A DNA stretch of 64,000 bases from Trypanosoma brucei (taxonomy: Eukaryota): assembly GCA_000002445.1 (NCBI GenBank), contig CH464491.1, forward strand, positions 4,896,001-4,960,000, in the 5' to 3' direction. Position 1 is the stretch's first letter. The number at the start of each line of letters is the position of its first letter. The translations under genes and the position numbers were made by a program. The notes below the pieces were generated by a model, which was not told the DNA's origin, did no database searches, and saw only the letters and a list, made by a program, of their open reading frames with translations. This document shows, one piece after another, positions 8,011 through 56,440 of the stretch.

Positions 8011-8082
8011 AAGATGAGCCGACACAAAATATGCAGAAAGCGGCCGCCACGCCGATGATAGCGGAAAAAACACACAGACTGC

Positions 8083-10505: not shown

Positions 10506-10520
10506 TTCGTAGTGCTCTCG

Positions 10521-13076: not shown

Positions 13077-13760
13077 ACCTATCTAGGCTGGTAGGTCCTC
13101 CCTCACTAGTATTGATACACCACCTCCTTTGCAGTTACGAGCTATTCCGTGATGTTGGTAGCCAGCAACGCTAAAGCAAGCCGCCCCTCCAGGCGTCATC
13201 CTTGTCTCACTCAACAGACAAAAGGCGATCCGCTCATCAACAAGGGTTTTGTGGAGTGCTAATCTCTTTCCTTGAGATAGCCCGGCGCAGTTTCACTGCA
13301 TCCCGCACAACGACGGGCTGGGATTCTCTTCCACATCACCGGACAGCAGCATCTTAGTGCGGATGATACTGCTGATGGCACGCTGGCACGTGCCCAGGGA
13401 CCGACAAATGAAAAACGGTGTCCCAGCAAGACGCTGCTGATCCCTGTGCTGTATGATGCCGTATCCGGAGCAAAGCAGTGTTCCCCATGAAAGGAACGCT
13501 GCTGGCTCTTGGCTTCCCCCGATGATACGGGGTACTGGACCCTGGCACCACGTTGAGGTGGCCGGCGTCGCCAGGGAAATTTTCTATTTGCTACAAAACT
13601 GGAAACGTAGCAAGAATTTTTCTCTTTTTTGCAGCCATCTGTGCATTCTTTCTTTCCTTTCCTTTTGGATTTCCCCTGCTTGCTCTCCTTTTTCTGCTTT
13701 AGCTTTGCATTTTTAAAATATAAGTGTCACTATCGCAGTCGAGAGTTTTGCATTCCTCTG

Positions 13761-15008
13761 CTATTTTTTGGTGTGTTTGGCGCATTCTTGCGTCAGTGTG
13801 CTTGTCCCAGTTATTAGCGTTAGCTTTCCACTGGTGTGTACATGTGCCGGTACTGTTGATAAGAGGTGGTTAAAAACTGCTTCCGCTTGCCAGCTGAGCA
13901 TGCTCATTTCCGCAATTACTTTATTTTGCTGCGCACAACCGGCCAGTGTCTTCTCTATTTCTTGCGCTGCAGCCTCTAGGTTATCTTCGTATCCAGTTGC
14001 GGCTGCTAATTTGGTAGTTTTGTGTTTCGTGAATTTGCTGAATTCTGCACAGGCGCTGTCAGCTTGGGTGCCGCGGTGGGCTAATGTTCCTTTTGTACCT
14101 ATGTAAACTGCGATGTTCCCGCCTGCCGCGAACGTTTTCCACATTTGCCGGGGTCAGCCCGCTGCTGTCCGAACCGCCGCTGGTGTCAGGTCGCCTTTGT
14201 TGTACGCTTCGCACATGGTTATCAGTGCATCGCCTGCGTTGGTGTAGGTTGTAGGAGTTGCGGCGTCCGCGGCGATGTTCCGTGTGGTTGTTGGAGCTGA
14301 GCAAATGTCGATCGTCATCGTTCCCGAGTGTTTGCTGCACACACAAGCCAGCGACGTGCAAATGGAGTCGGTGGCGTTATCGTCTTTGCAGATGTCTTGC
14401 CTTGTTGAACCCGTTGGGGTCATGCACCGGTCTTCGTCGGTTTTGCCTGCCGTGTCCTGTCCAAACACTGCTTTGTTTATGAAGCCATCTATGTGAGCTT
14501 TGTCCCCCTCAATGGCTGGTTTTATATCTGTGGCATGCTGTTCCGCTAACCGCCTAGCGTACTCGGTGATCGCGGCTATTGTTAGAGCCGCCTGGCCTTC
14601 CGCACTGCGCATTGTGCTGTCGCCTATGTATTTGTTCCCAGGTCTGACGCCTTCGCTGTGAGCTGTAATGTTCGCTTTCGCATGAGCTTTCCACTGTTTG
14701 TGGCACTGTGGAAGCTCGTTATTGTCTTTGCATGGGTTTTGTCGGCGTTAACGATTTGCGGCTTTGTTGGGAACTGCTTTGCCCAATCGGGGTGTGCAAG
14801 TGACATGTCAAGGGCTTCTATTATTTCGTATGTTGCTTCGACATCTTCGACAGCTGGTAAGACTGTGTCCTTTGCCTGCCGCAAGTTTACAATGTCGCAT
14901 AGGACATCTAGTTCTGCTAGGTTTTTTTGCGTTAGCGTCGTCTGCTGCGCTGGCTTGCTCGGCAGAAATAAGCAAAGCCAAAAACACAACGGTGACTAGC
15001 ATATTCAA
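13761..15008 (-). pseudogene. VSG pseudogene, N-terminal domain (frameshifts, no C-terminal domain)
   Basis: Signal peptide MLVTVVFLALLISAEQASA. VSG-like segments in three frames (14624-14989, 14154-14612, 13761-14144). Ends about 185 bp from the ingi 5' end. Confidence 0.7.
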
Positions 15009-18414: not shown

Positions 18415-20596
18415 AAGCTAATAAAATACACAAATGCTCCTAAACTCTCTTGCGTTTTTGACGGCCGCATTGACAGCTTCCGTCGCCACAACAAATATGA
18501 GGGCTGACTCTAACAACATCTGGTTAATTCCGTTGCAGTATTTCTGTTAAAAGAAAAAGTAAGCAAGCCTTCTAAATTTATAAACACCGAAATTTCTCCG
18601 CGTGTTGTGGTAACAAATTCCTTCGAACATTAAATTTTGGTCGCTTCGTAGAGTTACGTAAAAGGCACTCAGTTAAGCCAAATAATACCCACTTTATAGT
18701 TTAAATCCACTTTATCTTTATCTATATCTATATCCATATCGTCTCAAACACTTAAGATTCATGGTCCTCAACGGCCTCTTTCATCTGTTAAGTTGCCGTT
18801 TCCGCTTTGATTCGGAATAAAAAGATGGCATTGTGTTTTTTTTAGCGGAAAAGACTTCACTTATTTCTCTGTTTTTTGCAAGGTATTGTTTCTTTTTGTT
18901 GCGATAGCTTGTTTCAATACCTCTGTTTATCGTATTACGTGCATTTTGTGAAGTCTTCGACTGTAGAATCGTCCATTTTTATCTTTGTGAAGTGCTCGTT
19001 CATTGTTGTTAAAATTGTGTCGTCAATTCCCTTAAAGAGCGTGTTTCCAGGGTCGTTCTTGATAACGTCTTTGCTTTTTTCCGTCCTTCAAAGTGTCTAA
19101 AACGTGATACATGTCATTTGGTAAGCTGGTTAAGTTAATCCTCACAATCCTTTCGATTATTCATTTCCGCCTTTCCTCCACGTTCTAGAGTGTTTGCCTT
19201 CCGCCTTGCGAACTTGTAGCCGCTTAATCGGCCGTATTTACAGTGCATGCAGAGTGCACATGTGGTTGAACTCTACAATATTTTCTGCGGCTTCGTTGGC
19301 AGATTTTGTTAAACTTATTAGAAGAAAGAATACCTCTATTAGAATCTTGGCTCCTTATTTTAGTTCAGCAAATATTTGGACGAAAATAATCCGTAAAATT
19401 AATAAAATACAAAATTCTTCAAATGTCAGTGGAAGAATAAAAGTTATCATGACTTTCAGGTTGTATTTTTAGGGATTACATGTAGACAAAACATGTGTTT
19501 TTCTACTAATTTCCACTTTTAATTCTAAGTTAGTTTATTTTACATCTATTGAATCTATCATTTATGCGTTGCAATATCTTTCATAATCTTTTAATTCGCA
19601 TATTTCGTTTGATTTGGAATTATTACGTAAAGTTGTTGTTTTTCTGTTGAAGTATTTGGCGTTTTGGCTATATAATTCATTCTAGGAAACTGTTTTTGTT
19701 GTTTTTTAAGACTAGGCAGTATATGTCTCGAAAGCAATCTCCTTGTCTCTTCGTCTCACCTTTTGCATATCTTTAGCTATGCATGCATCCGAAACAGCTG
19801 TTATATGAACAACTCGCCGCCTAAATGCTGTTGGGTCTCACCGTCACACCCACATTGCAGTTGGGTGGCGTCGTTTTCAAGCTTCTATACTTCTTACAAA
19901 AATTGCTTCCTAGCCAGATTCATGCTCTATTTTAAGAATTTTCAGCGTTTTTACTCTTCCTTTTCTGTGAATAGTAGTCTATTTGTAGTTCCATTTTTAA
20001 AATACACAATAATGTTTTATAGCTTCCCACAAATGTCAGCCATTATTATTATATCTTATGAGAAGACTTCTACATTACACCACACATACCAGATCCGTTC
20101 CTCGTGCCTCTCCTTCTTGTACTTCACAGCTGTACGTCAGAATCCGCCATCTGATTTAAAACTACAGTGACCATCATCACCTCCGTCGTCGCATCTATCT
20201 ATTATACAGTTAAATAGCGCGCACGATCTTTTCCTGCATTATTTTTCTTCTTTCCTTTTCCGTTCCGGTAATCCACTTCTTTCACTCTGTATTTTTTAAT
20301 TTTTTATGTACTTCTACCATCGCTGCGAATAACGTAGTAATTCCATGTAACTTCACACTTTATTCTCTCTCTTCTCCCGTTATCCCCTACAACATCTCCT
20401 TTTATGTGATAATGCACACATTCATGTTTTTGTGTTTGAAACACCGCATATTCCTTCTTCATTTCTGTCTCAGTGTCTTTCTTTTTCTATATTTCGGTAA
20501 ATAATATTTCTCTACCCACTTACTTATTCTCATAGTTTCCTTATCATTTTTTAAGGATTTTTACATTTCACTGTTATTTTGACTTTTTCTGCTTTA

Positions 20597-20633
20597 TTAT
20601 AATATTCTTTTCTACAAACTCACAACATTCTTC

Positions 20634-20694
<61 letters not shown>

Positions 20695-20760
20695 GTTGGT
20701 GTTGTTGGTGTGGTTAGGGTAATTGGGATGATGATGATGATGATGATGTTGATGCCGTAG
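20597..20760 (-). repeat. 70-bp repeat unit (reverse) with expanded triplet tract
   Basis: TTATAATATTCTTTTCTACAAACTCACAACATTCTTCTATTATT, then (ATT)~29, then (GTT/GGT)n, GGTTAGGGTAATTGGG and (GAT)n. Confidence 0.6.
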
Positions 20761-20924
20761 CACAAGCTACTTTAGATCCAGAGGATCCTGTGAGACGCAT
20801 ATTACTAAGAGTTGCATCTGTGGACAGCTTTGTAAAGCTTCATATTTTCGGCGAAACATGCTAAAATAAATCAAATTTATAGAAATTTAAAAAAAAATTC
20901 AGAAAACTCTACAAACCAAAGTAA

Positions 20925-21320
20925 CTTTTAATAAAAATGAGAACAATTCTTAGAATTCAAAAAAATATACTATACTCACAAAAACAGCAGCCATCAGAGC
21001 AAATTTTTTGTTACAAGCAAACTGGAAGAGATAAAAAAACAGGAGTTACTGGGCCAGCGCCATCAATGTAAGTAATGCAACCACAAAAAGCTTTCTTTCC
21101 TTGAGGAATTGCGCCAGTTATTTTGGTGAATTCTTCAGAAGTTTTGGCGGAAGCGCACCTATCTGTTGTTGTATCTCCTGTTCCTGTTTCTGCTTGTTTG
21201 GCATTCTCAATCAATGTGCACTTTTTGTCCTCGTCTGATCTGGAGTTAAAAACGCACCCCTGGCAGTTGAGCGGCGGAAGCCGTCGGGTTGAGGCAACAG
21301 ATTGCGATGCTGAAGGTTAA
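20925..21320 (-). pseudogene. Orphan VSG C-terminal-domain fragment
   Basis: KKAFCGCITYIDGAGPVTPV... The GPI tail NKKFALMAAVFVSIV is in another frame. No N-domain upstream. Confidence 0.6.
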
Positions 21321-21699
21321 TTTCTAATTTTATTAATCTTTCTCCCCATATATTAGTGTTTTTAATTTATTACCCCCTTGAAAACAAATCGTATCCCGTA
21401 GTAAACTTCCACGCGCCAGCGTAAAACAAAAAGAAGGAAAAATTTGAAGGCTTGCGCACAGCAAAATGCAGAGCTGAAATTCACAAAAGCAAAATGAACA
21501 TAAGTGTAACGATGTGGAGATAAAAATGAAAGTAAAAAAAAACGCTGACGTCTGCAGTAGAAGTAAGTGGCAACCTTGTTGTTAAAAAAAAAGAGCCGGT
21601 GCATCATCAAAAAATATGGAAATAAATTTAAAAAATGAATCCCAAAAAGATAAAATCTGGCATTTAAAAAAAATTAAGCGCCGTTGCATGGCTTAGCGG

Positions 21700-21840
21700 C
21701 GAATAAGGGTTAGGGTCCGCATAACAAAAGAGCTGCTGCACCATTAAGAAAAAAGTGAAAAGTCTCGACGCTTTACTGCTAGTAAATAAAAATATTTTTA
21801 GTGAGAAGACAATGAAAACCCTAACCCTAACCCTAAACGG
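21700..21840 (-). repeat. Telomere-hexamer-bounded element, copy 1
   Basis: GAATAAGGGTTAGGGTCCGCATAACAAAAGAGCTGCTGCACCATTAA...CTGCTAGTAAA...AAACCCTAACCCTAACCCTAAA. Homologous to the copies at 31005-31195 and 55510-55600. Confidence 0.6.
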
Positions 21841-22167
21841 CTAAACACCACCGGGAAATCTGGACACTCTGCGCGGTGTGCCTGGTTGTACACCAAAAGA
21901 AATGCAGCGCGCCGCAAAAAAAATTTGGCACTCTTCACCCTAAAAAAATAAAAATTAACTCTTAAAATCAAAAACCTAAAAATGCCGAAATGAAAGACCA
22001 AAAATTTACCCTAACAATGTTTGCTAGAAAATTTAACCCTGACCTTCCTTCATTCTTTTCTTCTTTATTCGTTTTCAACAAAAAACAAGGAAAAAAAAAT
22101 TCACCCATCAGGAAATTTTACAGAGTCACAATTTGACGAACACACATTATTTTCGGGAAATTGTAAG

Positions 22168-22183
22168 GTGTTAAAATATATCA
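22168..22183 (-). promoter_or_regulatory. VSG 3'UTR 16-mer (exact TGATATATTTTAACAC on the minus strand)
   Basis: GTGTTAAAATATATCA on +, 40 bp downstream of the VSG stop at 22223. Confidence 0.8.
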
Positions 22184-22222
22184 AACAGCAAAGTTTTTTT
22201 TTTAAAAAGAGGGGAAATTTGT

Positions 22223-23787
22223 TTAGAAAATCAAGCCCACAAATGCAGAAGAAACCACGCTGAGAGCGAATTGCTTGTTTAGGAGAAAACTACCATTTCG
22301 GCATTTCTCTGTATCCTTGTCATCCTCATTATCTTTACCCTTCCTCCATGCACAATTTTGTTTCTCGCCTGTTTTGTCACTTTCACAATCAGGCTGATTT
22401 TGGTGCCTTGCACATCCAGATGTGGTTGCAGCTCCTGCACCTGCTCCTACTGTTTTGGTTGCTTGTTGTTCTGCTGCTTTTGCTGGATCTAATGAGCACT
22501 TTTTGTTTGCATCAGTGGCATTGCCGTTCCACTTGCAGGGATCATTGCATTTTTCGCTTTTTGTATGTTTGTTGCATTCTGCTTCCGTGGGGAGCTGTTT
22601 CTTTACTACTGGGGCTGTTGTGCTGAGGACCTGGACGGGATTTTGGTATAGATAGCTGTGGACTGTTGCGTTTATTAAACGCAGCTGGGCTTCAATTGTA
22701 TGAAGTGCGCTTAGGGTTTTGTACTTGTTTTGCAGCTTCTGTGCAGTATTCACTAGGTGCTCAGCCCATGGTATCCCAGCCTTTCCTTTGGTGAAAAGCT
22801 CCGGTTTGTAGGCGGCACACTTGCCTCCATTGCTAGCTTTGTTGCCGGTGCAGCCAGCTTCGCCGGTGGTGTCTAGCTCGCCAAGTACGTAATTTTGCTT
22901 GGTGGTGCTGCCCTGCTTGTGTTTCAATTTTCCTATGAATGTCGCCAGCGCCGACGTGACCGTTGCTTCGTTTAGTTCGTGGTGCGGCGAAAACGCTTGG
23001 CAGCACTTGAGTAGGTTGTCTGCTTCGGCGAGGTAGTTTGTGTCCGCGGCCGGTGGTGTGTCCAGGTTTGTAGCGGTGCACGTGTTAACGCATGCCTTGC
23101 CGTGTGTTGCTGTGCTCGTTCCATGTTTAGCACATAAACAAGTTATGTCCAGTAGATTGAGCTGCCGGCTTTGTTGTCGGCATCGGCGCCGCTTTTGCCA
23201 CAGCTGTCTTCTCTGGTTTTGCTTGCTGGTATTGGCTTGAATTCCGCCGGTTTTGTTATGGTGCCATACAGGGCTAAGTTCTGTTCTGCCGTTACGTCGG
23301 TCATGGAAAGCTCTTTGGATTTGCTTTGTGCTACCTTAAAGAGTTCTAGCGCATGTTGAGACAAAAGTCTAACCCGGTTCGCGGTTTTCTCGGTCGGCGC
23401 TAGGGTCGCCCATAGTGCTTGAGCCTCTTTGGTTCGTGTTTTGGGAGTTGATTTGGCTTCCTTGTACAGCGGCCAGTTATTTTCCCACCCTGGTCTGTCC
23501 GCCTTTTCTTGCGCTGTTAGGCTGCTCCAATCCTTGTCCTCTAGAACGGCGTTGGTGAAGTTTTGGTCACTAACACTGAGGTTTGCTGCGAGTATGTCTA
23601 GGGTGAGTTGCTTATTTTGTGTGTCGTCAGTTATTGCTGCCGGTTGAGTTTGTGCTAAGTTAGCTAGCGCGCAGAGTGCCGAAAATGGCTCTATGTTGTC
23701 ATTGTCGGCGCTGTTAGATTGTACACGTTTTAGTGCCGATAAAGACAGTACTAGAGCTGCTATTAGAAGCAACGTCGCCATTTGCAT
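22223..23787 (-). pseudogene. VSG pseudogene (internal frameshift)
   Basis: N-domain ORF 23143-23787 (signal MQMATLLLIAALVLSLSA, SALCALANLAQT). C-terminal ORF 22223-22927 ends CRNGSFLLNKQFALSVVSSAFVGLIF. Confidence 0.8.
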
Positions 23788-24059
23788 CTGTTGGCTTTTT
23801 TACTGCGTTGAGAGAGAAAATTGTATAGTAGAGTAAGTTTGATGTTGCTCTTTTATGGGTTATGTTGTACATTAGAGGTTCTTTCGGTTATATGTTGCGG
23901 CATGCTTTCGCTGAAGAACGTGGTCTCACATTCTTAACAGTTACTTGCACTATCTTTTCACATTCTTGAATGAATAGAATCTGATATTTACCATTAGGTT
24001 CCGCTTTTCCACTACACAACGCACAATCACACCATGGCATTACGTTCTTCCCATTATCA

Positions 24060-24297
24060 CCGGACAGCAGCATCTTAGTGCGGATGATACTGCTGATGGC
24101 ACGCTGGCACGTGCCCAGGGACCGACAAATGAAAAACGGTGTCCCAGCAAGACGCTGCTGATCCCTGTGCTGCATGATGCCGTAGCCGGAGCACAGCAGT
24201 GTTCCAAAAGAGAGGAATGCTGATGACTCTTGGCTTCCCCCGATGATACGGGGTACTGGACCCTGGCACCACGTTGAGGTGGTCGGCATCGCCAGGG
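24060..24297 (-). mobile_element. Solo 5' half of RIME/ingi (about 238 bp) flanked by a 10-bp direct repeat CCCATTATCA
   Basis: The reverse complement equals ingi positions about 1-240 (CCCTGGCGATGCCGACCACCTCAACGTGG...GCTGCTGTCCGGTG). CCCATTATCA sits immediately on both sides (24050-24059 and 24300-24309). Confidence 0.7.
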
Positions 24298-26049
24298 TCC
24301 CCATTATCAATCTACCTACGCCGAATAATAATGGACAGTCTATTATTCAAAGTTCCTTGTCTTCACCAGGTAATATTATGGTTTGTCAGCAGAACAAATG
24401 CACAAAACCCACAACCTTCACCATTACATATATATCTTTTCGAGTGAAATATAAATCAAATCTCTTCTTGAGTCGTTATTTTCTGTTCGGCGGTTTCACG
24501 AATGCAGCTTTTTTACTCTTTCTTTTTCCCCTTACTTCCACTTTCTGTTGCTTCTTCTGAAGATCACGTAGTGACTCCTTTTATCCTGTACACTGCACCA
24601 TCTCCCCTCCATCATCTCCTTGTGTATGACGATGCCCATCGTCATGTTTGTGTATAGAATTGCACATATTCCATGTTTCCCTCTCTTTTCTTTTGGCTCC
24701 ATACGCTTGATTGAACAATAATAAGAATCACCATGATCTTCGTCTCACTCACTCATACTCACTCATACTCACTCAGCGCTTCTTCGCACTGCTTAACTTT
24801 AGCATTCACTATCAAATTAAAGAAACACAGTTTATATTGTCTTTGAAACTTCTTCTTACAATTTTGGGCAAAATACGCTTTTCTTTAGGTCTTTTCAGCG
24901 CTCGCCAGGGTCAAATACTAAGTTTTTTTTCGTAATCGCAGCACTTGATCGGGTAGAAAGCTCATTTTTATATTCTATATGCTTAATACTTCATTTTGAG
25001 CATGGATGATAGACGGACTGAGGAGACGCTTTTGTTGCTGTTTTATTAGAGACTCCGTTCATTTGAATTTTATTTCCTTTTTTTTCCATTTAAATTGTTG
25101 TGCTTGTCACCCGGCCGTGCTTATTTCTTTTCTTTCAAATTATCGATACAGAAAGCTGTAGTGGGAGAAATACTGGTAAGAAGTACTGATTCTAGTACTC
25201 CTGCCACAAGAAAGAATGGACTCAATTTTATTAAACGTCAGTGATATCGTTTTAATATACCAAATATGATACTTAAGTTAACTTTTTAAATCTTTACTTG
25301 AATCTGTAAAATAAAGAATTTCTTGCTTCTATCTAATACCTTTGCTAATTCACCCAGGTGTGGAGTCATTAAGAGTTAGTGTTTATACTCTATATTGTGA
25401 GTTAATAAAGCTCTTACTTTAAACTTTTATCTTCTGCTTATGCCTTTGTGTCGTTCACTGCCGTCTTTTTAAAAAAATTCTATTAGTTTTGTGTGTTGTC
25501 ATAAGTTTTTTCGCAATAAGTAGCTACGCCATTTGCCGTATCTTCTTTTTACTGCTTAGTAACAATAACAGATGCATTTATATAAACCTATATCATTGTC
25601 TTCTTTACTCACTGCTATTAACTGTTTTATATACATAATAGCGCCTCAAATAAAAATAATGAATTTTTCAAATAATTTCTTGGAGCATGTTAGAAAAAAT
25701 GCTCTTAGTCGGGTTTAACTTGTAATCCTTCCTTTTGTTAGCTACAATGAGTTTGTTTAGTCTTTAAAGTGCACAGTGATCTCCATTTTCGGTCGATCCA
25801 TTATCTTTTTGTAAATTGTAACCATAATTGCTTTATTTTTGTATGAAATGCCACATATTGCATTAACATTTACTTCTCGATGACCTGATGCTGTTTCTTT
25901 TAATAATATCCCTCGTACATCGTCTATTTCACACTTACTATTACACTCATTCACTTAGTTCCATTACTCACTTGTTCCCATTGCATCTTCTTCATTGTTT
26001 GAAGGGCTCCTTTTTTAGCGACCCTAGGGTCTACAGCATTACTACTTTC

Positions 26050-26259
26050 ATTATAATATTCGTATATACACGCTCACAACACTCTCCTATTATCATTATC
26101 ATTACTATCATCATTATTATTATTACTGCTCTTATTATAATATTCGTATATACGCATACTCACAACACTCTCCTATTATCATTATCATTACTATCATCAT
26201 TATTATTATTACTGCTCTTATTATAATATTCGTATATACGCATACTCACAACACTCTTC

Positions 26260-26310
<51 letters not shown>

Positions 26311-26353
26311 ATAACCTTATTATTATTATTATTATTATTATTTATTATTATTA

Positions 26354-26388
<35 letters not shown>

Positions 26389-26400
26389 TATTATTATTAT
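26050..26400 (-). repeat. 70-bp repeats (3 units, reverse) with long (ATT)n tract
   Basis: TTATAATATTCGTATATACGCATACTCACAACACTCTCCTATTATCATTATCATT occurs three times, then (TTA)n from 26250 to 26400. Confidence 0.85.
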
Positions 26401-26577
26401 TACCACAACAAATATCCAGATAACGAAAAGAATAATAAAATTAAAATAGCACTCATTTTTAATACCATGCAACCCTACTACTAATTTGAACTAGTAGGCC
26501 ACTATCATACCATAATTTATATTTTCAGACTTCTATAAATTTCACCAGTTTGCACATTTTTCAAAGGTTGTACGAAA

Positions 26578-29659: not shown

Positions 29660-29760
29660 ATCATAAATTCTTTTCTGTAATGTTAGTATATACAGACTCC
29701 CAACAATTTTATATTATTAACATTACTATTATAACCTTAATTAATATCCATTACATAAGC
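29660..29760 (-). repeat. Degenerate 70-bp repeat remnant (reverse)
   Basis: GTATATACAGACTCCCAACAATTTTATATTATTAACATTACTATTATAACC. Confidence 0.3.
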
Positions 29761-29949
29761 AAAAACATTATATCAATCACTTTGCATATCTTATCACTAT
29801 ACTACCTTTACACCCAAAAGCCAATATCATACCAAGATGTCATACTTTTCTCAAAAAATCATATTTTACAAAAGTGTTAATTTTGTAATATTTCACTAAA
29901 TTCTCTCAATGTAGAAATTTTTATAAAAGTGAGCAAAAAATCTTCAAAA

Positions 29950-30410
29950 ATCCTTAAAATAATAAAATAATACCAAACTCACAAAAGAAGCAGCCATCAT
30001 GGCCAATTTCTTATTGGCGAAGAAACTAAAAGAGGGGCATTTAACCTTTTCTTTTTCATCATCGTTATCTTTCCCACTTCTCCATCCACAATTTCGCTTG
30101 CCATCTGTTTTGTCATTTTCACAAGCGGTTTTATCTTTGTGCGCTGCACACCCGGTTGCAGCTCCTGGTCCTTCTCCTGCTGGGGTTTCTTGTTACACTT
30201 TTTTCCATTCATTTTGCAGTGTTTTCCATCTTTTTCGTCAGGGCCTTCCCATTTGCAGTTTCCATTCTTTCTCCAATCAGCTGCTTTTGTTAATCCTTCG
30301 CATTCTTTGTCGGGGGATCGTGGCTGAAGCTGCATAAGCTTTGCCGGCTCTATAATGGTGCTCGCCACATCGGCGATGCTCAGGCGGGTGGAGTTAAAAA
30401 AAATCATTTA
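29950..30410 (-). pseudogene. Orphan VSG C-terminal-domain fragment
   Basis: ORF 29997-30407: ...DKECEGLTKAADWRKNGNCKWEGPDEKDGKHCK... The tail FFANKKLAMMAASFVSL is in another frame. No N-domain. Confidence 0.6.
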
Positions 30411-31000
30411 TATGCGCCGTAGCCGAGCCTCCGGCTGATGCAACCGAAAACAAAGAAAAAAAATGAATTCCAAAAATTTCAAAGGTTAAAAAAGGCCATA
30501 AAAGGGGAAAAAACGCGGAAACGAAAAAAAAAGGTAAAAAATAAAAAAATGATCGAAAAGAACCAAAAAAATAAAATATCGCCGCGGGGCTAATAAAAAA
30601 ATTACAAAACTCAAAAAAATTAAAAATTGAATGTGTAACAAAAAAATGTTAAAAAACTTAAAATTAAAAAAATGACTAAAAAAAATGGTAAAGTAAAAAA
30701 CATTGAAATTAAAATTTAAAAACTCGAAATGTTTTTTAAAAATCAAGAATGTTAAAAAATTTTTAACACTAAAAAAAATCAATAACAAAATTGAAAGCCG
30801 CTTGTAGAAAAACCAAGCCAAAAAACAAAAAAACTCGATGACGCAAGATATAAACAGCCAAAAAACCGTAGAAATTTGTCAAAAAGAGGGGGGGAGAATT
30901 GAGTCGGTGACGTTGGTGAAAAAAAATGTCAAAAGTGTAAAAATCAAAAATTTCTCGAAAAGGAACACAAAAAAGAAAAATTAAACGCCGCTGCTAAGCC
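30410..31000. repeat. Low-complexity A-rich tract (T-rich on the VSG sense strand)
   Basis: About 600 bp of AAAAAAT/G-type low complexity. The ORFs it yields (poly-F/K) are artefacts. Confidence 0.7.
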
Positions 31001-31004
31001 GCAA

Positions 31005-31195
31005 ACTCATAGGGATTAGGGTGCGCATAACAAAGCAGCCGTCGCTCCATTAAAATTTTGAAAAAGATCTAAAGCCGCGCCGTTTCGCTGCTAGAAAAAA
31101 ATTAGTATCAGGGGAAATAACCCTACCCTAAGCCTGGAAACACTCCCTAACCTACCTACCAACTTCCTACCTCCCTACCCACCTCCTCTCCTGCC
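31005..31195 (-). repeat. Telomere-hexamer-bounded element, copy 2
   Basis: CATAGGGATTAGGGTGCGCATAACAAAGCAGCCGTCGCTCCATTAAAATTTT...CGCTGCTAGAAAAAAATT...AATAACCCTACCCTAAGCC, then a CCTA-rich tail. Confidence 0.6.
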
Positions 31196-31317
31196 TCGTT
31201 GCACAAAAAATTCAAAAAGAAAAAAATGGGAAAAATTCTTTTATTTGTTAGAAAAAAATTTACAGAATCAGAAACTTACTACCAGGAAACACATACAATA
31301 TCCTTGACTGGTTTTAC

Positions 31318-31333
31318 GTGTTAAAATATATCA
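31318..31333 (-). promoter_or_regulatory. VSG 3'UTR 16-mer (exact)
   Basis: GTGTTAAAATATATCA on +, 8 bp from the VSG stop at 31341. Confidence 0.8.
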
Positions 31334-31340: not shown

Positions 31341-33071
31341 TCAAATAGCAATAATTTTTAGCAAAGGAGAAAAAGAGGGGAAAATTGTTTTAAACAGCAA
31401 GGCTACAAAAGCAGCAGAAACCACGGTGAGGGCGAATTTCTTGGTTAGTAGAAAACTACCATTTCGGCATTTTTCTGTATCCTTGTCATCTTCATTATCT
31501 TTACCTTTTCTCCATGCACAATTTTGTTTATCACCTGTTTTGTCATTTTCACAAGCGGCTTTATCACTGCCGTGTCTTGCACATCCAGATGTAGCTGCTG
31601 CTGCTCCTGAAGCTCCATCTCCTGCCCCTTGGTTTGCCTGTCCTTCTCCATCTTTAGGTTTGCATGTTCCACCTGTTTCAGTTTTTCCATCCCATTTGCA
31701 GTTATTTTCTGTACATGTGGTGTTTGTTTCATGTTTGCTGCAAGTTTTTTTACCGTGCTCGACTGGGTTGCCGTCACTGCCGGCAGGTTTGCTGGTTTCT
31801 ACTGTCCTTGAGGCGGCAGCTTTTAGTTCTGCCCTTGCCGCAGCCTGGATGTTGGTTAACTCCCTTGTGAGCTCTGCGTTCTGTAACATTACTGCTTCGG
31901 CAGCATCTAGTTTGTCTGCCGCCGACAGTAGTTTTGCTTCCCACGGTAGTTGACCATTGCCGTCGGTTAGGTGCGGTGCGTAGTCGACACAGACCCCGTT
32001 GTCCGAGCTGCCGTTGCACTTGCCATCGGTATGCGGTTTGCCCAGGACGTACATGGCTGGTCCGGTTGATGCCGCCGCTGCTTGGGCCCCGATTAGCGTT
32101 GTAAAGCTATTTAGCTGTTGTCGGATAATCTGTCCTGTTATGCCGCTGGGTGGCTTTTTGAGGCCGCAACCGTTTTTCAATTTTGTGTATTCGGTGGCGG
32201 TGGTTGTTTTGCCGCTACCGTCTCCTACTGTCTTTATGCTTATTCCATGTTTGCAAATGTTGTTGCCGTTGGTCCTGGTTTTCGCCGCTATACAGATCCA
32301 CATTAAGTCGTGGCTTACTGAGATTGCTATTTTTTCCTTGGTTGCGCCGGCTGATTTGCAGTGCTCATCGATGTTAGTTTCAAGTTTCGCCTGCTCAAAC
32401 TTGTTGTTGCCGTCGCCGTACAGTGCTTCCAAGATAAGCGTCTTTGCGTTGTCCGTTTCTGTGTTCGCTGATACCGCGTTGGCCTGGATGTGCTCTAGGA
32501 TTGCCTTGGCGCGTTCGTGAATTTTACTAATGAAGGCGTTGGCTGCTGCTTTGGCCTCTGGGTTTTGCGGCATCGGGTAAGCTGCTTTTTGTGGATTGCC
32601 TGTTTTGGCGGCTATAGCTTCCAGGTTTTGTTTTCATTGTTTTATTTGTTCGAGTTTTTGGTCGTCTTTCGTCGGCGAAAGTTCACCGTCTTTGTTCGTC
32701 TTGAACGATTCCGTTGCCGTCGTCAGGTTGAGGAGAAATATGTCGTTGACAATTGCCGCTGCTGTTCTCGTGTCTAGTGTTATTGACAGGTCAGGCGCAC
32801 CTTTTCCGAGACTGAGAAGGTCACAGAGCGCTTTGTATTCCCCAGCATTTCTGTTTGTTGCGGACACCGTTAAGGCAGCTCCAAATAGACACAGTGCGCC
32901 GAGTACTTTGCTCATGTTTGTGGTTCGAAGTTCATTTTTTCGCAGATCCATCTTTGTTTGTCGTATTGGCTTAGATATGTGCTGTGCGCGCATAAGGGTG
33001 ATTTGCGTCATGTGGTGAAAAAGGGCGTAGAACAGCATACAGGACATTAAGTACTCGGTGATTTTTGACAT
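31341..33071 (-). pseudogene. VSG, near-intact (single frameshift around 32573-32634)
   Basis: Signal MSKVLGALCLFGAALTVSA plus the N-domain start (32634-33071). The rest is in a second frame (31341-32573) and ends DKQNCAWRKGKDNEDDKDTEKCRNGSFLLTKKFALTVVSAAFVALLF. Confidence 0.75.
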
Positions 33072-34371: not shown

Positions 34372-35471
34372 TTAACATCGAAACTCTGCCCACCGTTCGT
34401 CAATTTTTGTAAGCTTTTTAACCAGAGGCTTCAGCATAGAATCATATTTGTAGCGGTTTTTGAGGTGTATGTAGTCTTCTTCGCTTATGTGATGGAAAAC
34501 GATAGTTTTTTCAGGCGTTAAATTAGTTGCGTGAAAAGCGCTCCTGTTTGCATGCATTACATACCAACAATCTTGCATCTCTACTGTCAGCAAACCATCA
34601 AATTTCAGTCTATTCCTTAATACCTCTCCCACCATAATATCTTCATTAAGTGCTCTAAAATCGATATTTCAAAATTTCTGAATTTAATTGGTGATTTTAC
34701 TAACTTTCTCAAAGGATCATAATCAACAATTTCCTTAAATACATCTCTTGATAGTGTGGAAGCATAACCAATAGTGTGCCATGTAATTTCATCACTAAAT
34801 TCTTTGGGATAACCAACAGCTCTTTCCATATTCAATTTCTATCGTGGCAATATTTTAAGGTGCTGTAAATACAATAGCACTCTCATAAAAATATCATCAT
34901 CTGCTTTCATTATACAGGAAATAGTTGGTTTAAATATTTCAACTGCAAATTTGAACCACAAGTATGTTTTTCTACTCATTGTCAGTTCCGCTTCCCATCC
35001 CCAATTACCCGCATCTCACACTTTCTCATTTGTTGTTGGATTCACATCGCAAACAGGCAAAATAATAATATCCTGATTTAACTCTGATTCTTCTTCAACA
35101 ATTTCTCTGAGCTCGCAATTGTTATTTGTATGAGGTGAAAGTGCATACACTATAAGCAACTTTCCAGTGAAATTATTTAATTTTCTCGCCACTTCAGGAT
35201 AACTCCAACACGTTTCTCTCTGTAAATGTCGTCGTCTAAATCCTTCATCATTATCTATTGAAGGTATTCCAGCTACAACCAAATAATTTTCAGTTCTCCA
35301 AATCCTCCTCACATCCAGCGGAACAAATCTCATATACTGATTTTCACCAATTTCAAGTGAAGTGGATTCACCTTTGTCATACAAGCTGTACAGCAATACG
35401 AGTAGATTAATACCCATAACAATAAAAGTTAAACAGCATATAGTCCCATAAATACTTCCTATACACTTCAT
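34372..35471 (-). pseudogene. Beta-1,3-glycosyltransferase-like (UDP-Gal/UDP-GlcNAc-dependent GT family) pseudogene
   Basis: Type-II N-terminal membrane anchor (CCLTFIVMGINLLVLLY). Conserved ETCWSYPE...ILPVCDVNPT block shared with the 48587-49522 copy, which also has a KADDDIF (DxD) motif. Three frames: 35016-35471, 34617-34835, 34372-34635. Confidence 0.55.
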
Positions 35472-42444: not shown

Positions 42445-42456
42445 GGATCCATCAGT

Positions 42457-47149: not shown

Positions 47150-47720
<571 letters not shown>

Positions 47721-53804: not shown

Positions 53805-55280
53805 TGCCAACACTTCATCGCCAACTTCTGTGGTTTGTAGGACTGTTTACAAGTCTCGCTGAGCCGGCGGGAGAAAACGTCAGACAATTCTACGCCTTGT
53901 GTACAGCATAGCAAGCTGCACGAGCACCCCTGGATTAACCACAAACAGCAGACGACAACAAAGTGGAAGCAGTTCCGGAAACCATCAAAGCACTCTACGC
54001 GACAGCTACACCAGACCAGTACTTCAACAATGAAACGTATGGCCTGTTCACAGCAAAAGCGGAATTCGACGCGATCAAAAACACTCTCAAAAACACAAAA
54101 ACAACAGACGAACAATTAGTTTATAAAAGAATCCCAGAAAAGCCAACAAAAAAACCGGCAGAAACTGCTCTAGAAAGGCTGTACAACAAAACAGACCAAC
54201 TAGTAACTGCTGCAAACGCCAAAATCAAAAATATAAAACAAAAGCACACAGAAGCGAGACAACAACTCGAACAGACGCTAGGCGGCAAAACAGACGCCAG
54301 CACCGTCTCTTCTGACGACTTTACAGGACGTCCAAACGGTTGCACGCCAACAGCCGCTAACAGTGCCAAGCAAACTTTACCGCAGGCGCTGGTATGCCTT
54401 TGCTCGGCCAGCAGCAACGGAGGCGGCATATGCGGCGACGGCATCGGCGACACAACATACGGCACCAACAGTGCGAGTACAGCAGCAGCAGCGCTATACA
54501 AGAAACTCGCGACAAAGTGCCCACAACCCAGGACGCTACGAGCGACGCAAAGGAGCCTCACGGCAGCCCTAACCGCAGTCACAGCAGCCATTGACAACCC
54601 AGCCTTCACAGGGCATACAAACACGGGGACATACGTCATCGGCAATGGGAATGGCGGCGACTGCGCAGGAGGCGACTCGAACAGCGCATGCGTCGATTAT
54701 ACCGAAATCATGAAAGGCGGCGACATAGCGAATGTAGCTTGGGCAGCAAACTTACAAGCGGCGAGCACAAAGTTAGACGAAGCTAAAAACCTTCAAGCAG
54801 AGCTGTACAACCTGCGAACGGCCATCAAGCAAAATGAGAACCTAGCGTGGAAGATCCGCGACACAGCAGATATTGTGGCCGCGGTGCCCCGGAAGACCAC
54901 ACCAACTCAGCAACGGAAAATAACAGAAATCGACTGCGAGAAAAACAAAGAGAAAAAAAACCTGCACAGAAAACAATAACTGCAAATGGGATAGCAGGAC
55001 AGAGAAAACAGGAAACCACTGCAAACCTGCAGATGGAGAAGCGCAGACAAAAACAGCAGGGGGAGAAGCAGAAAAAGATAAGTGCTCTGCCGCACAAAAT
55101 GCTGAGGACTGTGCAAAAGTGAAGGGCGATATTCCAACAGGCAAAAAGGCTGTATGTGGGTGGATAGATTATGTCGAAGGCACTGGTCCAGTAACTCCTG
55201 GTTGCCGCTCTTCCAGCTTCCTCCTAAGCAAACAATTCGCCCTCAGAGTGGATTCTTCTTTTGTGGCCTTGCTTTTTTAA
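53805..55280 (+). pseudogene. VSG pseudogene (in-frame stop after signal peptide; C-terminal frameshifts)
   Basis: MPTLHRQLLWFVGLFTSLAEPAGENVRQFYALC, then a stop, then ORF 53963-54979 (LVCLCSASSNGGGICGDGIG...). C-terminus AVCGWIDYVEGTGPVTPGCRSSSFLLSKQFALRVDSSFVALLF is in another frame. Confidence 0.75.
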
Positions 55281-55318
55281 AACAAATTTTCCCCCTCAAT
55301 TTTTTCTTGCTGAAATTT

Positions 55319-55334
55319 GATATATTTTAACACC
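55319..55334 (+). promoter_or_regulatory. VSG 3'UTR 16-mer (exact TGATATATTTTAACAC)
   Basis: Direct match about 40 bp after the VSG C-terminus. Confidence 0.8.
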
Positions 55335-55509: not shown

Positions 55510-55600
55510 AAAGGCGGGTTATTCGGGTTAGGAATTTTAATTTTTTTATTTTAAGTGACGAAGTGGCCTTTTTTTGATGCGAACCCTAACCCTTATTCAG
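55510..55600 (+). repeat. Telomere-hexamer-bounded element, copy 3 (short core)
   Basis: GGCGGGTTATTCGGGTTAGGAATTTTAATTTTTTTATTTTAAGTGACGAAGTGGCCTTTTTTTGATGCGAACCCTAACCCTTATTCAG. The distal end GCGAACCCTAACCCTTATTC equals the corresponding ends of copies 1 and 2. Confidence 0.55.
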
Positions 55601-55799
55601 AAAGCATATTGATCGCCTTTTCGTGACTCTCTTAAACTAACATTTCCAGCATCTGAAATTTTCAACTCTGTATTTTGCGTTGTTTCAGATTTTTTAATTT
55701 AATTTTTTTTACCGTTTTGTATTTCGTTGCTTCTACAACGGTTTTTTTTGCAATGCCACTAAGCCTCCTCAGTCCGGTCGGCGCCTCAGCTTTTTGTGT

Positions 55800-56180
55800 G
55801 TGTTCGGCGCCACAAAATGCAGCCCCGGTCTTAATAGCAGCCGAAACAGAGGAAACTTGCTCAACGAAAGGAACAGGAGATAACTGCAAACCCCCTGCAA
55901 AGACGTTAAAGAAGAAGGTGGCAAAAAAGTTCAAATTGAATACAGAAGCAACAAAACAAACAAAAAAACAAACGGGAACAGGAAGGACAAGTGCCTGAGT
56001 AGATTGCAGTAAACTTGAAACGCAAGAGAAATGGGAGAGGGCCAATGAAAGCCAAACCACCAAAGTTCGCGAATGGAAGGGAGAAACTAGTTACTTATCT
56101 GACAAATAAGGTTATAAATGCAGCTCTTCCAGTATTTTTATCAATAAGAAATTTTCTCTTATGGATGCTACTTATGTGAT
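55800..56180 (+). pseudogene. Orphan VSG C-terminal-domain fragment
   Basis: ORF 55675-55998 (...CSTKGTGDNCKPPAKTLKK...) plus, in another frame, ...GYKCSSSSIFINKKFSLMDATYVIW (GPI-signal-like tail). No N-domain. Confidence 0.45.
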
Positions 56181-56366
56181 CTGGTAGTATTTAAAGGATA
56201 TTTGCTCAACTTTATAAAATTTTCTACTTGGAGAGAATTTGTTATTTTACAACAGTTTGGTGTAAAAGTGGCCGATGTATATAAATTAGTAGGGTGATAG
56301 AGCGTGTAAAATGAGTTATTCTCTGGTACTTTCTATCTCATAATATTTTTTGATTTTACACATTAC

Positions 56367-56440
56367 TTAGGGTTATAATACAGTAATAATAATAATAATA
56401 GGAGAGTGTTGTGAGTGTATATATAATAATAATATGGGTG
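56367..56440 (+). repeat. 70-bp repeat unit preceded by TTAGGGTTA
   Basis: TTAGGGTTATAATACAGTAATAATAATAATAATAGGAGAGTGTTGTGAGTGTATATATAATAATAATATG. Confidence 0.75.

What the first reader, a model, noticed from the sequence alone, without database searches (positions are those of the whole stretch)
20925..22230. Repeated module: VSG - 16-mer - telomere-hexamer element - T-rich spacer - orphan VSG C-terminal-domain fragment
At three places (VSG 22223-23787 with fragment 20925-21320; VSG 31341-33071 with fragment 29950-30410; VSG 53805-55280 with fragment 55800-56180) a VSG is followed by the telomere-hexamer element. Then comes a pyrimidine-rich spacer on the VSG sense strand (A-rich on + at 30410-31000). 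Then comes a short stand-alone C-terminal-domain coding fragment with its own GPI-signal-like tail and no N-domain. Orphan C-terminal-domain-plus-3'UTR segments are the kind of sequence that could act as 3' donors or recombination end-points in segmental VSG conversion. Finding them tied to the telomere-like element three times suggests a structured unit rather than random decay.
Basis: partly seen in the sequence, partly recalled or inferred. Interest (0 to 1): 0.6.

Follow-up and report, generated by a model that had tools for sequence, protein, structure and literature searches.

The report
Internalised telomere scar in VSG arrays
A recurring unit in trypanosome coat-gene (VSG) arrays looks like an old chromosome end (a coat gene, its telomere-type flank and a stub of telomere repeats) that was joined to the tail of an ordinary array gene and then copied many times. 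This would explain where orphan gene tails come from, but nothing found here shows a dedicated function.

Summary
The window is a Trypanosoma brucei-clade VSG array, closest to T. equiperdum OVI. At all three places a VSG with an exact 3'UTR 16-mer is followed by TTAGGG-like repeats, a T-rich spacer, and a stand-alone C-terminal-domain (CTD) fragment that ends at a 70-bp repeat. No N-domain remnant lies in between.

It is one homologous unit, not three coincidences. The spacer holds conserved blocks found only in these units. I found three more paralogues and one 99.35%-identical orthologue in two other assemblies. One paralogue carries about 1.03 kb of (TTAGGG)n at the same position.

Two flank classes exist. 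The unit's VSGs have a "telomeric-type" flank that runs into hexamers. The orphan CTDs have the ordinary array flank that runs into the 70-bp repeat.

Best reading: an internalised former chromosome end was fused to the 3' remnant of an array VSG and then amplified, to roughly 1 in 5 cassettes in my small sample. The fragments are decaying, with frameshifts and stops. The known 3'-donation mechanism reuses the expression-site CTD. The "dedicated 3' donor" idea is therefore not supported, although use as recombination homology remains possible. The origin of the spacer and of the inverted CCCTAA motif is unexplained.

The parts
22223..23787 (-). Module 1 VSG (B-type N-domain plus CTD). It is a pseudogene in this window because of a 1-bp deletion at 23153.
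   Evidence: Pfam VSG_B and Trypan_glycop_C. tblastn. The orthologue in T. equiperdum OVI is an intact 521-aa gene, P0013.
22168..22183 (-). Module 1 exact VSG 3'UTR 16-mer
22072..22165 (-). Module 1 'type T' (telomeric-type) 3' flank. Degenerate TTAGGG-like repeats begin about 115 nt after the 16-mer.
   Evidence: The nhmmer flank-T profile hits only module VSGs; leave-one-out E=6e-6.
21819..21836 (-). Module 1 (TTAGGG)3 on the VSG-sense strand. Its distal end abuts the conserved junction GGGTT|TTC...
21699..21835 (-). Module 1 conserved block A/B directly after the hexamers. It ends in the inverted ACCCTAACCCT (21706-21716).
   Evidence: nhmmer E=9e-35. The inverted repeat is limited to an 11-nt arm pair 101 nt apart.
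21450..21517 (-). Module 1 conserved block C inside the T-rich spacer (spacer 21296-21698, 40% T on the sense strand)
   Evidence: nhmmer E=4.5e-18; composition
20950..21295 (-). Module 1 orphan CTD fragment with a GPI-signal-like tail (NKKFALMAAVFVSIVYFFEF*). One frameshift. No N-domain.
   Evidence: Translation. blastx matches CTD positions only. Pfam 23.0 bits against a cut-off of 21.4.
20858..20873 (-). Module 1 fragment's own decayed 16-mer (TGATTTATTTTAGCAT, 3 mismatches)
20586..20750 (-). 70-bp repeat that closes the module 1 cassette
   Evidence: Self-blastn to other 70-bp blocks. Core match. The OVI contig ends here.
31341..33071 (-). Module 2 VSG pseudogene (ORF 31341-32573; VSG homology to 32930). 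90% identical to Lister 427 'VSG 309'.
31318..31333 (-). Module 2 exact 16-mer
31217..31317 (-). Module 2 type T flank
   Evidence: leave-one-out E=2e-6
31118..31197 (-). Module 2 degenerate G-rich/TTAGGG-like tract (GGAGGTGGGTAGGG...GGTTAGGG...CTTAGGGTAGGGTTA)
31006..31137 (-). Module 2 block A/B, including the inverted ACCCTAATCCCT at 31011-31022
   Evidence: nhmmer E=1e-28; blastn to module 1
30450..31005 (-). Module 2 T-rich spacer (52% T on the sense strand)
   Evidence: No N-domain. No long-period tandem array.
29945..30449 (-). Module 2 orphan CTD fragment (hinge to GPI signal). One frameshift.
   Evidence: About 100 tblastn hits, all CTD-range. Pfam 55.9 bits.
29717..29848 (-). Module 2 fragment's array-type (type A) 3' flank, running into a degenerate 70-bp repeat (about 29690-29750)
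   Evidence: nhmmer flank-A profile built from other loci; sequence
53805..55280 (+). Module 3 VSG pseudogene (B-type)
55318..55333 (+). Module 3 exact 16-mer
55516..55598 (+). Module 3 hexamer element: degenerate GGGTTATTCGGGTTAGG, then block B ending in CCCTAACCCTTA (55584-55595)
   Evidence: nhmmer E=1e-12
55645..55688 (+). Module 3 block C within the spacer 55596-55809 (43% T)
   Evidence: nhmmer E=7e-9
55810..56186 (+). Module 3 orphan CTD fragment with two in-frame stops. It is homologous to the orphan fragment of L005 (79% over 119 nt).
   Evidence: (37.2 bits, profile positions 1-101 of 104)
56258..56440 (+). Module 3 fragment's type A flank and the closing 70-bp repeat

Best explanation
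Each module looks like the scar of a former chromosome end buried inside a VSG array.

- **Upstream half.** The VSG, the exact 16-mer, the T-rich "type T" flank and the degenerate-then-pure TTAGGG repeats on the VSG-sense strand form the terminal structure of a telomeric VSG.
- **Downstream half.** The CTD fragment, the decayed 16-mer, the "type A" flank and the 70-bp repeat are the 3' remnant of an ordinary array cassette. That cassette lost its N-domain and upstream region in the join.

The join most likely arose when an eroded or broken telomere, or a conversion tract copied from a telomeric donor that ran on into its telomere repeats, was captured onto array DNA. Capture would have been by break-induced replication or microhomology-mediated joining. 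It left an interstitial telomere tract followed by a 0.3-1 kb spacer (conserved blocks A-D) of unknown source.

The junction register (…TTAGGGTTA|(C)TTTTT…) and the spacer blocks are shared by all copies. So one, or very few, ancestral events were then spread by the same cassette duplication that built the arrays. Tract length afterwards drifted, from under 20 bp to about 1 kb. Upstream VSGs diverged or were replaced by gene conversion.

The orphan CTDs are not maintained as coding sequence. Any present-day role is incidental. Possible roles are direct-repeat homology with the upstream CTD, TTAGGG homology with real telomeres, or binding sites for telomere proteins.

Shown: anatomy, homology, polarity, the two flank classes, recurrence, decay. 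Inferred: the rearrangement mechanism, single origin, and lack of function.
For: 1. **Shared spacer.** Block A/B and block C profiles hit only the six modules and one orthologue in 166 kb from three assemblies, with E from 1e-9 to 1e-35. Pairwise identity is 69-88%.
2. **Long tract in a paralogue.** In T. b. equiperdum (L002) the same unit has a period-6 array of 166 GGGTTA copies (3239-4269, 88% matches) on the VSG-sense strand, preceded by degenerate G-rich repeats from about 3190. It lies between a 16-mer and block A. Collinear blastn to module 1 runs on both sides.
3. **Polarity of a true end.** The repeats next to the VSG are degenerate and G-rich. The repeats at the far side are pure and abut block A in the same register in every copy.
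4. **Two flank classes.** Type T occurs only after module VSGs, and leave-one-out recovers 5 of 6. A type A profile built only from non-module flanks hits the flank after all six orphan fragments, for module 1 via its OVI orthologue L007.
5. **16-mer preservation.** Module VSGs keep the exact 16-mer in 4 of 5 scorable cases, against 1 of 27 other VSGs (p=7e-4). Two of the module VSGs are intact genes in T. equiperdum OVI.
6. **Distance to the repeats.** It is about 140-390 nt from the stop codon. Expression-site VSGs show 200-1590 nt (Hertz-Fowler 2008, PMC2567434). [quoted passage not shown]
7. **No N-domain remnant**.
8. **Stability.** The module 1 cassette is 99.35% identical to an OVI contig. 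There are no differences from the VSG 3' half through the orphan CTD.
Against: - The spacer (blocks A-D) and the inverted CCCTAACCC motif about 100 nt after the tract have no identified source. A simple telomere-to-array join does not predict them.
- I could not obtain a genuine telomeric VSG flank, so "type T = telomeric type" rests on literature statements and on the hexamers themselves.
- Paralogues differ by 25-30%, yet one keeps a tract of about 1 kb that is 88% pure. This needs expansion or renewal, or it reflects long-read assembly error.
- Spacer and CTD homology falls into subgroups: M1/E1(/E2), M3/L005 and M2. Several events, or later conversions, are therefore possible.
- The sample is small (33 VSG 3' ends, three closely related genomes) and was partly chosen by similarity to a module VSG.
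- Module 3's proximal flank and hexamers are weak; it is not recovered in leave-one-out.
Confidence: 0.55

Rival explanations
1. This is the ordinary telomeric VSG 3' flank, transposed whole. A short island of TTAGGG-like repeats in both orientations, followed by further T-rich sequence (blocks A-D), would be the normal conserved organisation downstream of telomeric VSGs. The modules would be telomeric cassettes copied into arrays with that flank. The hexamers were never a terminal tract, and only the spacer|CTD junction is a rearrangement scar.
For: [quoted passage not shown]
- T-rich sequence of similar low-complexity type lies on both sides of the hexamers (M2 spacer against M3 proximal flank).
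- Both the proximal start of the repeats (105-140 nt after the 16-mer) and the distal junction are fixed in register. That would be expected of a conserved flank.
Against: - One copy holds about 1 kb of repeats with degenerate-proximal and pure-distal polarity.
- I could not test directly for blocks A-D in a telomeric flank.
- M1 and E1 share homology across the spacer|CTD junction (69.6% over 336 nt). At least those two copies therefore descend from one join rather than from independent transpositions.
Confidence: 0.2
2. This is a selected recombination module. One version is the first reader's: the orphan CTD plus 3'UTR serves as a 3' donor or end-point. The other version: the interstitial TTAGGG tract gives an array VSG telomere-like downstream homology. 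The unit then acts as a landing pad for exchange between telomeric VSGs and the archive.
For: - The unit is frequent, at about 6 of 33 cassettes.
- Upstream VSGs are better preserved than their neighbours, with exact 16-mers and two intact genes, while the spacer and orphan are old.
- The proximal flank length varies between copies, as if different telomeric donors had been copied in.
- Donors of at least 200 bp suffice for mosaic formation (PMC13233330).
Against: - The orphan CTDs are frameshifted or stop-containing, with decayed 16-mers.
- No near-identical CTD exists in the protein collection.
- 3' donation is explained by retention of the resident expression-site CTD (PMC3708902).
- Most tracts are 0-3 hexamers, too short for efficient homologous recombination.
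- The one orthologous pair shows no turnover.
- Mosaic donors work irrespective of context (PMC13233330).
Confidence: 0.15
3. The fragments are the 3' ends of decayed full-length pseudogenes whose N-domains are still there but unrecognised.
For: Other apparent CTD-only tblastn hits in related loci did turn out to be full-length A-type or degenerate genes.
Against: - Only 0.2-1.0 kb separates the hexamer element from each CTD, and that stretch is 32-53% T.
- blastx at E<=1 and Pfam at E<=1 find no N-domain.
- The space is occupied by blocks shared with other copies.
Confidence: 0.02
4. The fragments are 5'-truncated retroposed copies of abundant VSG mRNA, made by the ingi reverse transcriptase.
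For: Two ingi elements with RT, endonuclease and RNase H lie in the window. 5' truncation is typical of LINE-mediated retroposition.
Against: There is no poly(A) run after the fragments' 3'UTRs. The sequence continues as the normal genomic type A flank into the 70-bp repeat.
Confidence: 0.02

Closest known systems
Conserved 3'-flank organisation of telomeric VSG genes with 'TTAGGG-like' repeats (Aline & Stuart 1989, as cited by Hall, Wang & Barry 2013, PMC3708902)
   Same: The VSG is followed within a few hundred bases by TTAGGG-like repeats on the sense strand, and the flank is pyrimidine-rich. The distance fits the 200-1590 nt seen in expression sites (PMC2567434).
   Different: Here the structure is not at a chromosome end. 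It is followed by a conserved spacer, an orphan CTD, a 70-bp repeat and further cassettes. I could not read the 1989 paper or obtain a telomeric flank to compare base by base.
VSG gene fragments, mostly C-terminal, in the silent archive (Berriman 2005 and Marcello & Barry 2007 from my own knowledge; PMC13233330 says about 80% of VSGs are pseudogenes or fragments)
   Same: These are stand-alone CTD-encoding pieces without N-domains in subtelomeric arrays. They are about as frequent here (6 per 33 genes) as I recall for archive fragments (about a fifth).
   Different: In this sample every such fragment sits in one fixed context, behind a telomere-repeat relic and a conserved spacer. I found no description of that context in the searchable literature.
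Interstitial telomeric sequences left by double-strand-break repair, telomere capture or end fusion in other eukaryotes (e.g. PMC7215372; Magnaporthe, PMC7367193)
   Same: Telomere repeats sit at an internal site and mark an old rearrangement junction. Tract length is variable.
   Different: This copy is embedded in an antigen-gene cassette and amplified as part of it. A short inverted hexamer follows after about 100 nt, but there is no extended head-to-head palindrome.
3' donation / segmental gene conversion in VSG switching (Hall et al. 2013)
   Same: The break between the retained and lost parts of the old gene lies at the N-domain/CTD hinge. That is where conversion boundaries of 3' donation fall.
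   Different: In 3' donation the incoming gene is fused in frame to the old CTD. Here the incoming gene keeps its own CTD, UTR and telomeric flank, so the old CTD is left orphaned about 1 kb downstream.
Extra VSG pseudogenes and other sequences between the 70-bp repeats and the telomere in some expression sites (Hertz-Fowler et al. 2008, PMC2567434)
   Same: Both are by-products of repeated recombination at the distal end of VSG cassettes.
   Different: Those lie in telomeric expression sites and are sandwiched by 70-bp repeats. No telomere-repeat relic was described for them.

Membership tests
VSG C-terminal domain (Pfam PF10659 Trypan_glycop_C) | Profile match above the curated gathering score (21.4 bits) | tested here: met
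   Fragment 1 scores 23.0 bits, fragment 2 scores 55.9 (second half), and fragment 3 scores 37.2, covering profile positions 1-101 of 104.
VSG C-terminal domain (Pfam PF10659 Trypan_glycop_C) | Uninterrupted reading frame ending in a GPI-anchor signal (needed for a usable CTD) | tested here: not met
   Hydrophobic GPI-like tails are present. But fragments 1 and 2 need a frameshift, and fragment 3 has two in-frame stops.
Full-length VSG pseudogene | Recognisable N-terminal domain (PF00913 or PF13206) upstream of the CTD | tested here: not met
   blastx against 87 full-length VSGs at E<=1 gives only CTD-range matches. Pfam on all three frames of the three spacers at E<=1 finds no VSG domain.
VSG cassette of the silent arrays | Bounded by 70-bp repeats upstream and downstream | tested here: met
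   70-bp blocks flank all three modules: 26038-26403 and 20586-20750; about 36104-36216 and about 29690-29750; 51583-51839 and 56360-56440. The OVI contig of module 1 runs exactly from repeat to repeat.
VSG 3'UTR | Conserved 16-mer TGATATATTTTAACAC shortly after the stop codon | tested here: met
   It is exact in the three module VSGs. In the orphan fragments it has 3, 5 and 5 mismatches.
Interstitial telomeric sequence | Tandem TTAGGG repeats at a non-terminal site | tested here: met
   Module 1 has three perfect repeats. Paralogue L002 has 166 copies at 88% match. Modules 2 and 3 keep only degenerate or isolated hexamers.
Telomeric VSG end | TTAGGG-like repeats a few hundred bases 3' of the VSG, on the sense strand | tested here: met
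   Distances are 140-390 nt from the stop codon. The literature range is 200-1590 nt.
Telomeric VSG end | The repeats continue to the physical chromosome end | tested here: not met
   In every copy the repeats are followed by the spacer, a CTD fragment, a 70-bp repeat and further VSG cassettes.
Telomeric VSG end | Flank sequence identical in type to that of bona fide telomeric (expression-site or minichromosomal) VSGs | not testable with these tools
   No telomeric VSG flank could be fetched. TREU927 proteins were not on record, look-ups are exhausted, and Aline & Stuart 1989 is not held.
Head-to-head telomere fusion | Extended inverted duplication on both sides of TTAGGG/CCCTAA | tested here: not met
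   Only an 11-nt arm pair 101 nt apart was found. In L005 the inverted similarity extends to a GGAGGTG junction motif, and no further. The downstream CTD has the same orientation as the upstream VSG.
Processed (retroposed) pseudogene | Poly(A) tail after the 3'UTR and loss of the genomic flank | tested here: not met
   The fragments are followed by the ordinary type A genomic flank and the 70-bp repeat.
Structured RNA or DNA hairpin element | Known RNA family match, or folding energy beyond shuffled controls | tested here: not met
   Rfam gives no match at E<=1. DNA folding z-scores are -1.2, 0.0 and +1.2.

The most novel reading that the evidence does not exclude
Roughly one array cassette in five would be a dedicated "pseudo-telomeric" docking unit.

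The interstitial TTAGGG tract and conserved block A/B would give an internal VSG the downstream homology of a telomeric gene. Together with the 70-bp repeats upstream, this would let whole telomeric VSGs be archived into arrays. It would equally let module VSGs be copied out to expression sites with a telomere-repeat end-point.

The orphan CTD would be a direct repeat whose recombination with the upstream CTD deletes the tract. The tracts could also nucleate TRF/RAP1 binding, silencing or fragility inside arrays.

This would make part of the VSG activation hierarchy, and archive turnover, predictable from sequence.
Probability: 0.15. Interest if true: 0.75.

Novelty: new variant of a known kind. 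Interest (0 to 1): 0.5.

Why it matters
If the pattern holds genome-wide, it gives a concrete origin for the many C-terminal VSG fragments of the trypanosome antigen archive: each would be the stump left when a telomeric VSG end was joined into an array.

It would also show that arrays contain two sequence-distinguishable cassette types. It documents traffic from telomeres into the silent archive. It places dozens to hundreds of telomere-repeat relics inside arrays, if the roughly 1-in-5 frequency in my 33-cassette sample extrapolates. These relics are candidate sites for telomere-protein binding, base J, breakage or recombination.

That makes several questions testable with existing ChIP-seq, break-mapping and VSG-seq data. 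Do module VSGs switch on earlier? Do sparse subtelomeric RAP1/TRF peaks map to these relics?

If it is only a scar, it is still a useful annotation marker for the history of a cassette.

Tried and rejected
- **Decayed N-domain in the spacers.** blastx and Pfam on all frames found nothing.
- **Retroposed VSG cDNA.** There is no poly(A), and the normal genomic flank follows.
- **Hairpin or cruciform from TTAGGG...CCCTAA.** The arms are only 11 nt, and folding is no better than shuffles.
- **Known RNA family.** None.
- **Spacer made of subtelomeric tandem repeats such as 29-mers.** TRF finds only short local duplications.
- **Telomere hexamers at 2132, 20714 and 56367 as further relics.** They are part of the 70-bp repeat unit.
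- **Other CTD-only hits** (L001 17799, L004 3882, L005 7394, L008 8164). These are full-length A-type or degenerate genes poorly covered by my mostly B-type query set.
- **Global MAFFT of the three modules.** It was uninformative. Local and profile methods were needed.
- **Near-identical expressed CTDs for fragment 2.** No candidates were found.
- **TREU927 loci and the window's own contig.** Not on record.
- **Literature.** Marcello & Barry 2007 and Aline & Stuart 1989 are not held. Ten full-text searches found no description of interstitial telomere tracts tied to CTD fragments in T. brucei arrays. That is absence from the held library only.


Full report
**What the window is.** Long ORFs match Pfam VSG N-domains (PF00913, PF13206) and the VSG C-terminal domain (PF10659). 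The best protein relatives are Trypanosoma brucei VSGs. The VSG at 3257-4720 is 100% identical to a T. equiperdum OVI protein. The window holds about 13 VSG genes or pseudogenes separated by 70-bp repeats, plus two 5.25-kb ingi retrotransposons. It is a subtelomeric VSG array of a T. brucei-clade genome close to T. equiperdum.

**Checking the observation.**
There are 5 hits with up to 2 mismatches in the window, against 0.09 expected.
- In module 1 the VSG-sense strand then carries degenerate TTAGGG-like repeats, three perfect TTAGGG at 21819-21836, and, 101 nt further on, an inverted ACCCTAACCCT.
- Module 2 has the same layout in degenerate form.
- Module 3 keeps only GGGTTATTCGGGTTAGG and CCCTAACCCTTA.
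- The spacers are 40-52% T on the sense strand, against 28% overall.
- The three fragments score 23.0, 55.9 and 37.2 bits against Trypan_glycop_C, whose cut-off is 21.4.
- By blastx the fragments match only residues from about 380 to the end of full-length VSGs.
- Each fragment has a GPI-signal-like tail, and each is interrupted by a frameshift or stops.
- Neither blastx at E<=1 nor Pfam at E<=1 on all frames finds any N-domain between VSG and fragment.
- One correction: the TTAGGG motifs at 2132, 20714 and 56367 are the start of the 70-bp repeat unit (TTAGGGTTATAATA...) and are not relics.

**It is one homologous unit.** Sensitive blastn and local alignment show conserved non-coding blocks in the spacer.
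- Block A/B lies directly after the hexamers: ...TTACTAGCGGTGAAGCGTCG...AGTGATGCAGCAGCTCTTTTGTTATGCGxACCCTAACCCTTATTC.
- Block C reads TTCATTTTGCTTTTGTGAATTTCAGCTCTGCATTTTGC.
- A further block D lies in some copies.

Profiles of blocks A/B and C hit only these units. The junction between the last hexamer and block A is in the same register in all copies (…GGGTTA|(C)TTTTT…).

**Related loci.** Using VSG homologues as handles, I fetched 102 kb from T. b. equiperdum (GCA_003543875.1) and T. equiperdum OVI (GCA_001457755.2).
- L002 holds two more copies.
- L005 holds another, behind an intact 533-aa VSG.
- L007 is the orthologue of module 1. It is 99.35% identical over the whole cassette from 70-bp repeat to 70-bp repeat. 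There are no differences from the VSG 3' half through the orphan CTD. Its VSG is intact, because the window has a 1-bp deletion at 23153.

The L002(+) copy matters most. Between the 16-mer and block A it carries a period-6 array of 166 GGGTTA copies (3239-4269, 88% matches), preceded by degenerate G-rich repeats from about 3190. It is degenerate and G-rich at the VSG side and pure at the far side. That is the polarity of a real chromosome end with the VSG pointing at it.

**Two flank classes.** The roughly 100 nt after the 16-mer of the module VSGs form one homologous class, type T. It leads into TTAGGG-like repeats 105-140 nt after the 16-mer. It is found after no other VSG in 166 kb, and leave-one-out recovers 5 of 6 copies. 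A profile built only from non-module flanks, type A, leads into the 70-bp repeat. It hits 26 further places, including the flank after every one of the six orphan fragments; for module 1 this is via its OVI orthologue L007. So the orphan is the 3' end of an ordinary array cassette, and the upstream VSG has a different kind of end that runs into hexamers. Module VSGs also keep the exact 16-mer in 4 of 5 scorable cases, against 1 of 27 other VSGs (p=7e-4).

**Frequency and association.**
- Six paralogous modules occur among about 33 evaluable VSG 3' ends. Counting only genes not used as search handles gives 5 of 27.
- Every CTD-only fragment in the sample belongs to a module, and every block A/B element is followed by one (6/6 against 0/27, p=9e-7).
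- Because the copies are related by descent, this p-value measures linkage, not independent recurrence.
- The sample is small and comes from closely related genomes.

**Mechanism.** The best-supported reading is an internalised former chromosome end.
- A telomeric VSG, with its flank and telomere tract, was joined to array DNA that began at the N-domain/CTD hinge of a resident VSG. This left an interstitial tract and an orphan CTD.
- The composite cassette was then amplified like any other.
- T. brucei repairs breaks by homologous recombination and microhomology-mediated joining (PMC3610638). Capture of an eroded telomere by break-induced replication, or a conversion tract overshooting into a donor's telomere, are therefore plausible routes.
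- Literature supports the telomeric signature. [quoted passage not shown] VSG-to-telomere distances in expression sites are 200-1590 nt (PMC2567434); here they are about 140-390 nt.

Shown are the anatomy, the homology, the polarity and the flank classes. Inferred are the type of event and its singularity.

Unexplained:
- the source of blocks A-D;
- the inverted hexamer;
- how a 1-kb tract persists in a unit whose paralogues differ by 25-30%.

The main rival is that hexamer island plus T-rich blocks are simply the normal telomeric flank. I could not test this, because no genuine telomeric flank was obtainable.

**Function.** I find no support for a dedicated 3'-donor role.
- The fragments are decaying.
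- Fragment 2 has no close protein relative.
- 3' donation is described as retention of the resident expression-site CTD, with mostly telomere-proximal donors (PMC3708902).
- Mosaic donors of at least 200 bp work regardless of location or flanks (PMC13233330).

Incidental roles remain possible:
- direct-repeat recombination between the VSG's CTD and the orphan;
- TTAGGG homology with telomeres in copies with long tracts;
- binding of RAP1 or TRF. RAP1 ChIP signal at T- and G/T-rich sequence downstream of VSGs, and sparse array peaks called "residual ES sequences", are reported in PMC10686619.

**Rejected alternatives.** Decayed N-domain. Retroposed cDNA. Head-to-head fusion or palindrome. Hairpin or RNA element. 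Tandem subtelomeric repeats in the spacer. Chance. Assembly artefact, because the unit is present in three assemblies and is orthologously identical.

**Novelty.** CTD fragments in the archive, TTAGGG-like repeats behind telomeric VSGs, and interstitial telomere tracts are each known. In ten full-text searches I found no description of their fixed coupling in one amplified cassette type with a conserved spacer and two flank classes. The key older papers were not readable, so I rate this a new variant of a known kind, with moderate interest.

Noticed in passing
window 8321-13576 and 40285-45534; also 39704-40284 and 24007-24297: There are two 5.25-kb ingi-type non-LTR retrotransposons, 95% identical and in direct orientation, with RT, endonuclease and RNase H ORFs. 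There is also an inverted 0.58-kb partial copy next to the second one, and a RIME-like piece upstream of the module 1 VSG. VSG orientation switches (+ up to 8.1 kb, - from 13.8 to 37.9 kb, + from 45.5 kb) exactly at the two ingi elements. The VSGs abutting them are truncated (6855-8078, 13845-14926, 45536-46717). This suggests ingi-associated inversion or breakage of the array.
   Followed up: partly
window 20697-20853: Compared with the 99.35%-identical T. equiperdum OVI orthologue, this stretch next to the 70-bp repeat has about 21 clustered substitutions. Nearly all are to C on the VSG-sense strand, and about 60 nt are missing. The OVI version matches the array-flank profile (47 bits); the window version does not match at all. 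It could be local hypermutation, a conversion patch, or a modified-base or assembly artefact.
   Followed up: partly
window 24097-24278: A second cluster of 11 substitutions against the OVI orthologue lies inside the RIME-like segment. It may reflect repeat collapse in the short-read OVI assembly, or gene conversion from other RIME/ingi copies.
   Followed up: no
window 23153: A single-base deletion relative to the OVI orthologue frameshifts the module 1 VSG. The OVI gene (P0013, 521 aa) is intact. This could be a recent pseudogenisation or a homopolymer error.
   Followed up: partly
window 2132-2143, 20714, 56367; L002 5246; L005 4851: The 70-bp repeat unit itself begins with TTAGGGTTA(TAATAA...). 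At 2132 the hexamer is doubled. This built-in telomere-like motif could give microhomology between telomere ends and 70-bp repeats.
   Followed up: no
window 22168, 31318, 55318, compared with all other VSG 3' ends: Exact 16-mers occur in the window only after the three module VSGs. The other eight VSGs have 1-8 mismatches.
   Followed up: yes
L005 3300-3366 and 3712-3777, plus 3552-3565: In the T. equiperdum OVI copy, block B is duplicated about 410 nt apart. Each copy ends in CCCTA(A)CCCTCCTCCCCCCC, and an extra CTAACCCTAA lies between them. The C-rich tail resembles an inverted copy of the G-rich GGAGGTGG...TTAGGG start of the tract.
   Followed up: partly
window 34552-35527 and 48532-49510; also L003 and L001: A segment of about 1 kb upstream of several VSGs is conserved at 77-82% between cassettes and genomes. 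Its 150-170-aa ORFs have no Pfam match.
   Followed up: no
window 59448-62198 (61433-61644 and 61758-61970): Downstream of the last VSG lie ORFs with no Pfam match, and a 212-bp direct duplication (77% identity) of unknown nature.
   Followed up: no
window 47151-47729 and 26038-26403: These are long 70-bp repeat arrays with expanded (TAA)n runs. They are much larger than the single degenerate repeats that close most cassettes.
   Followed up: no
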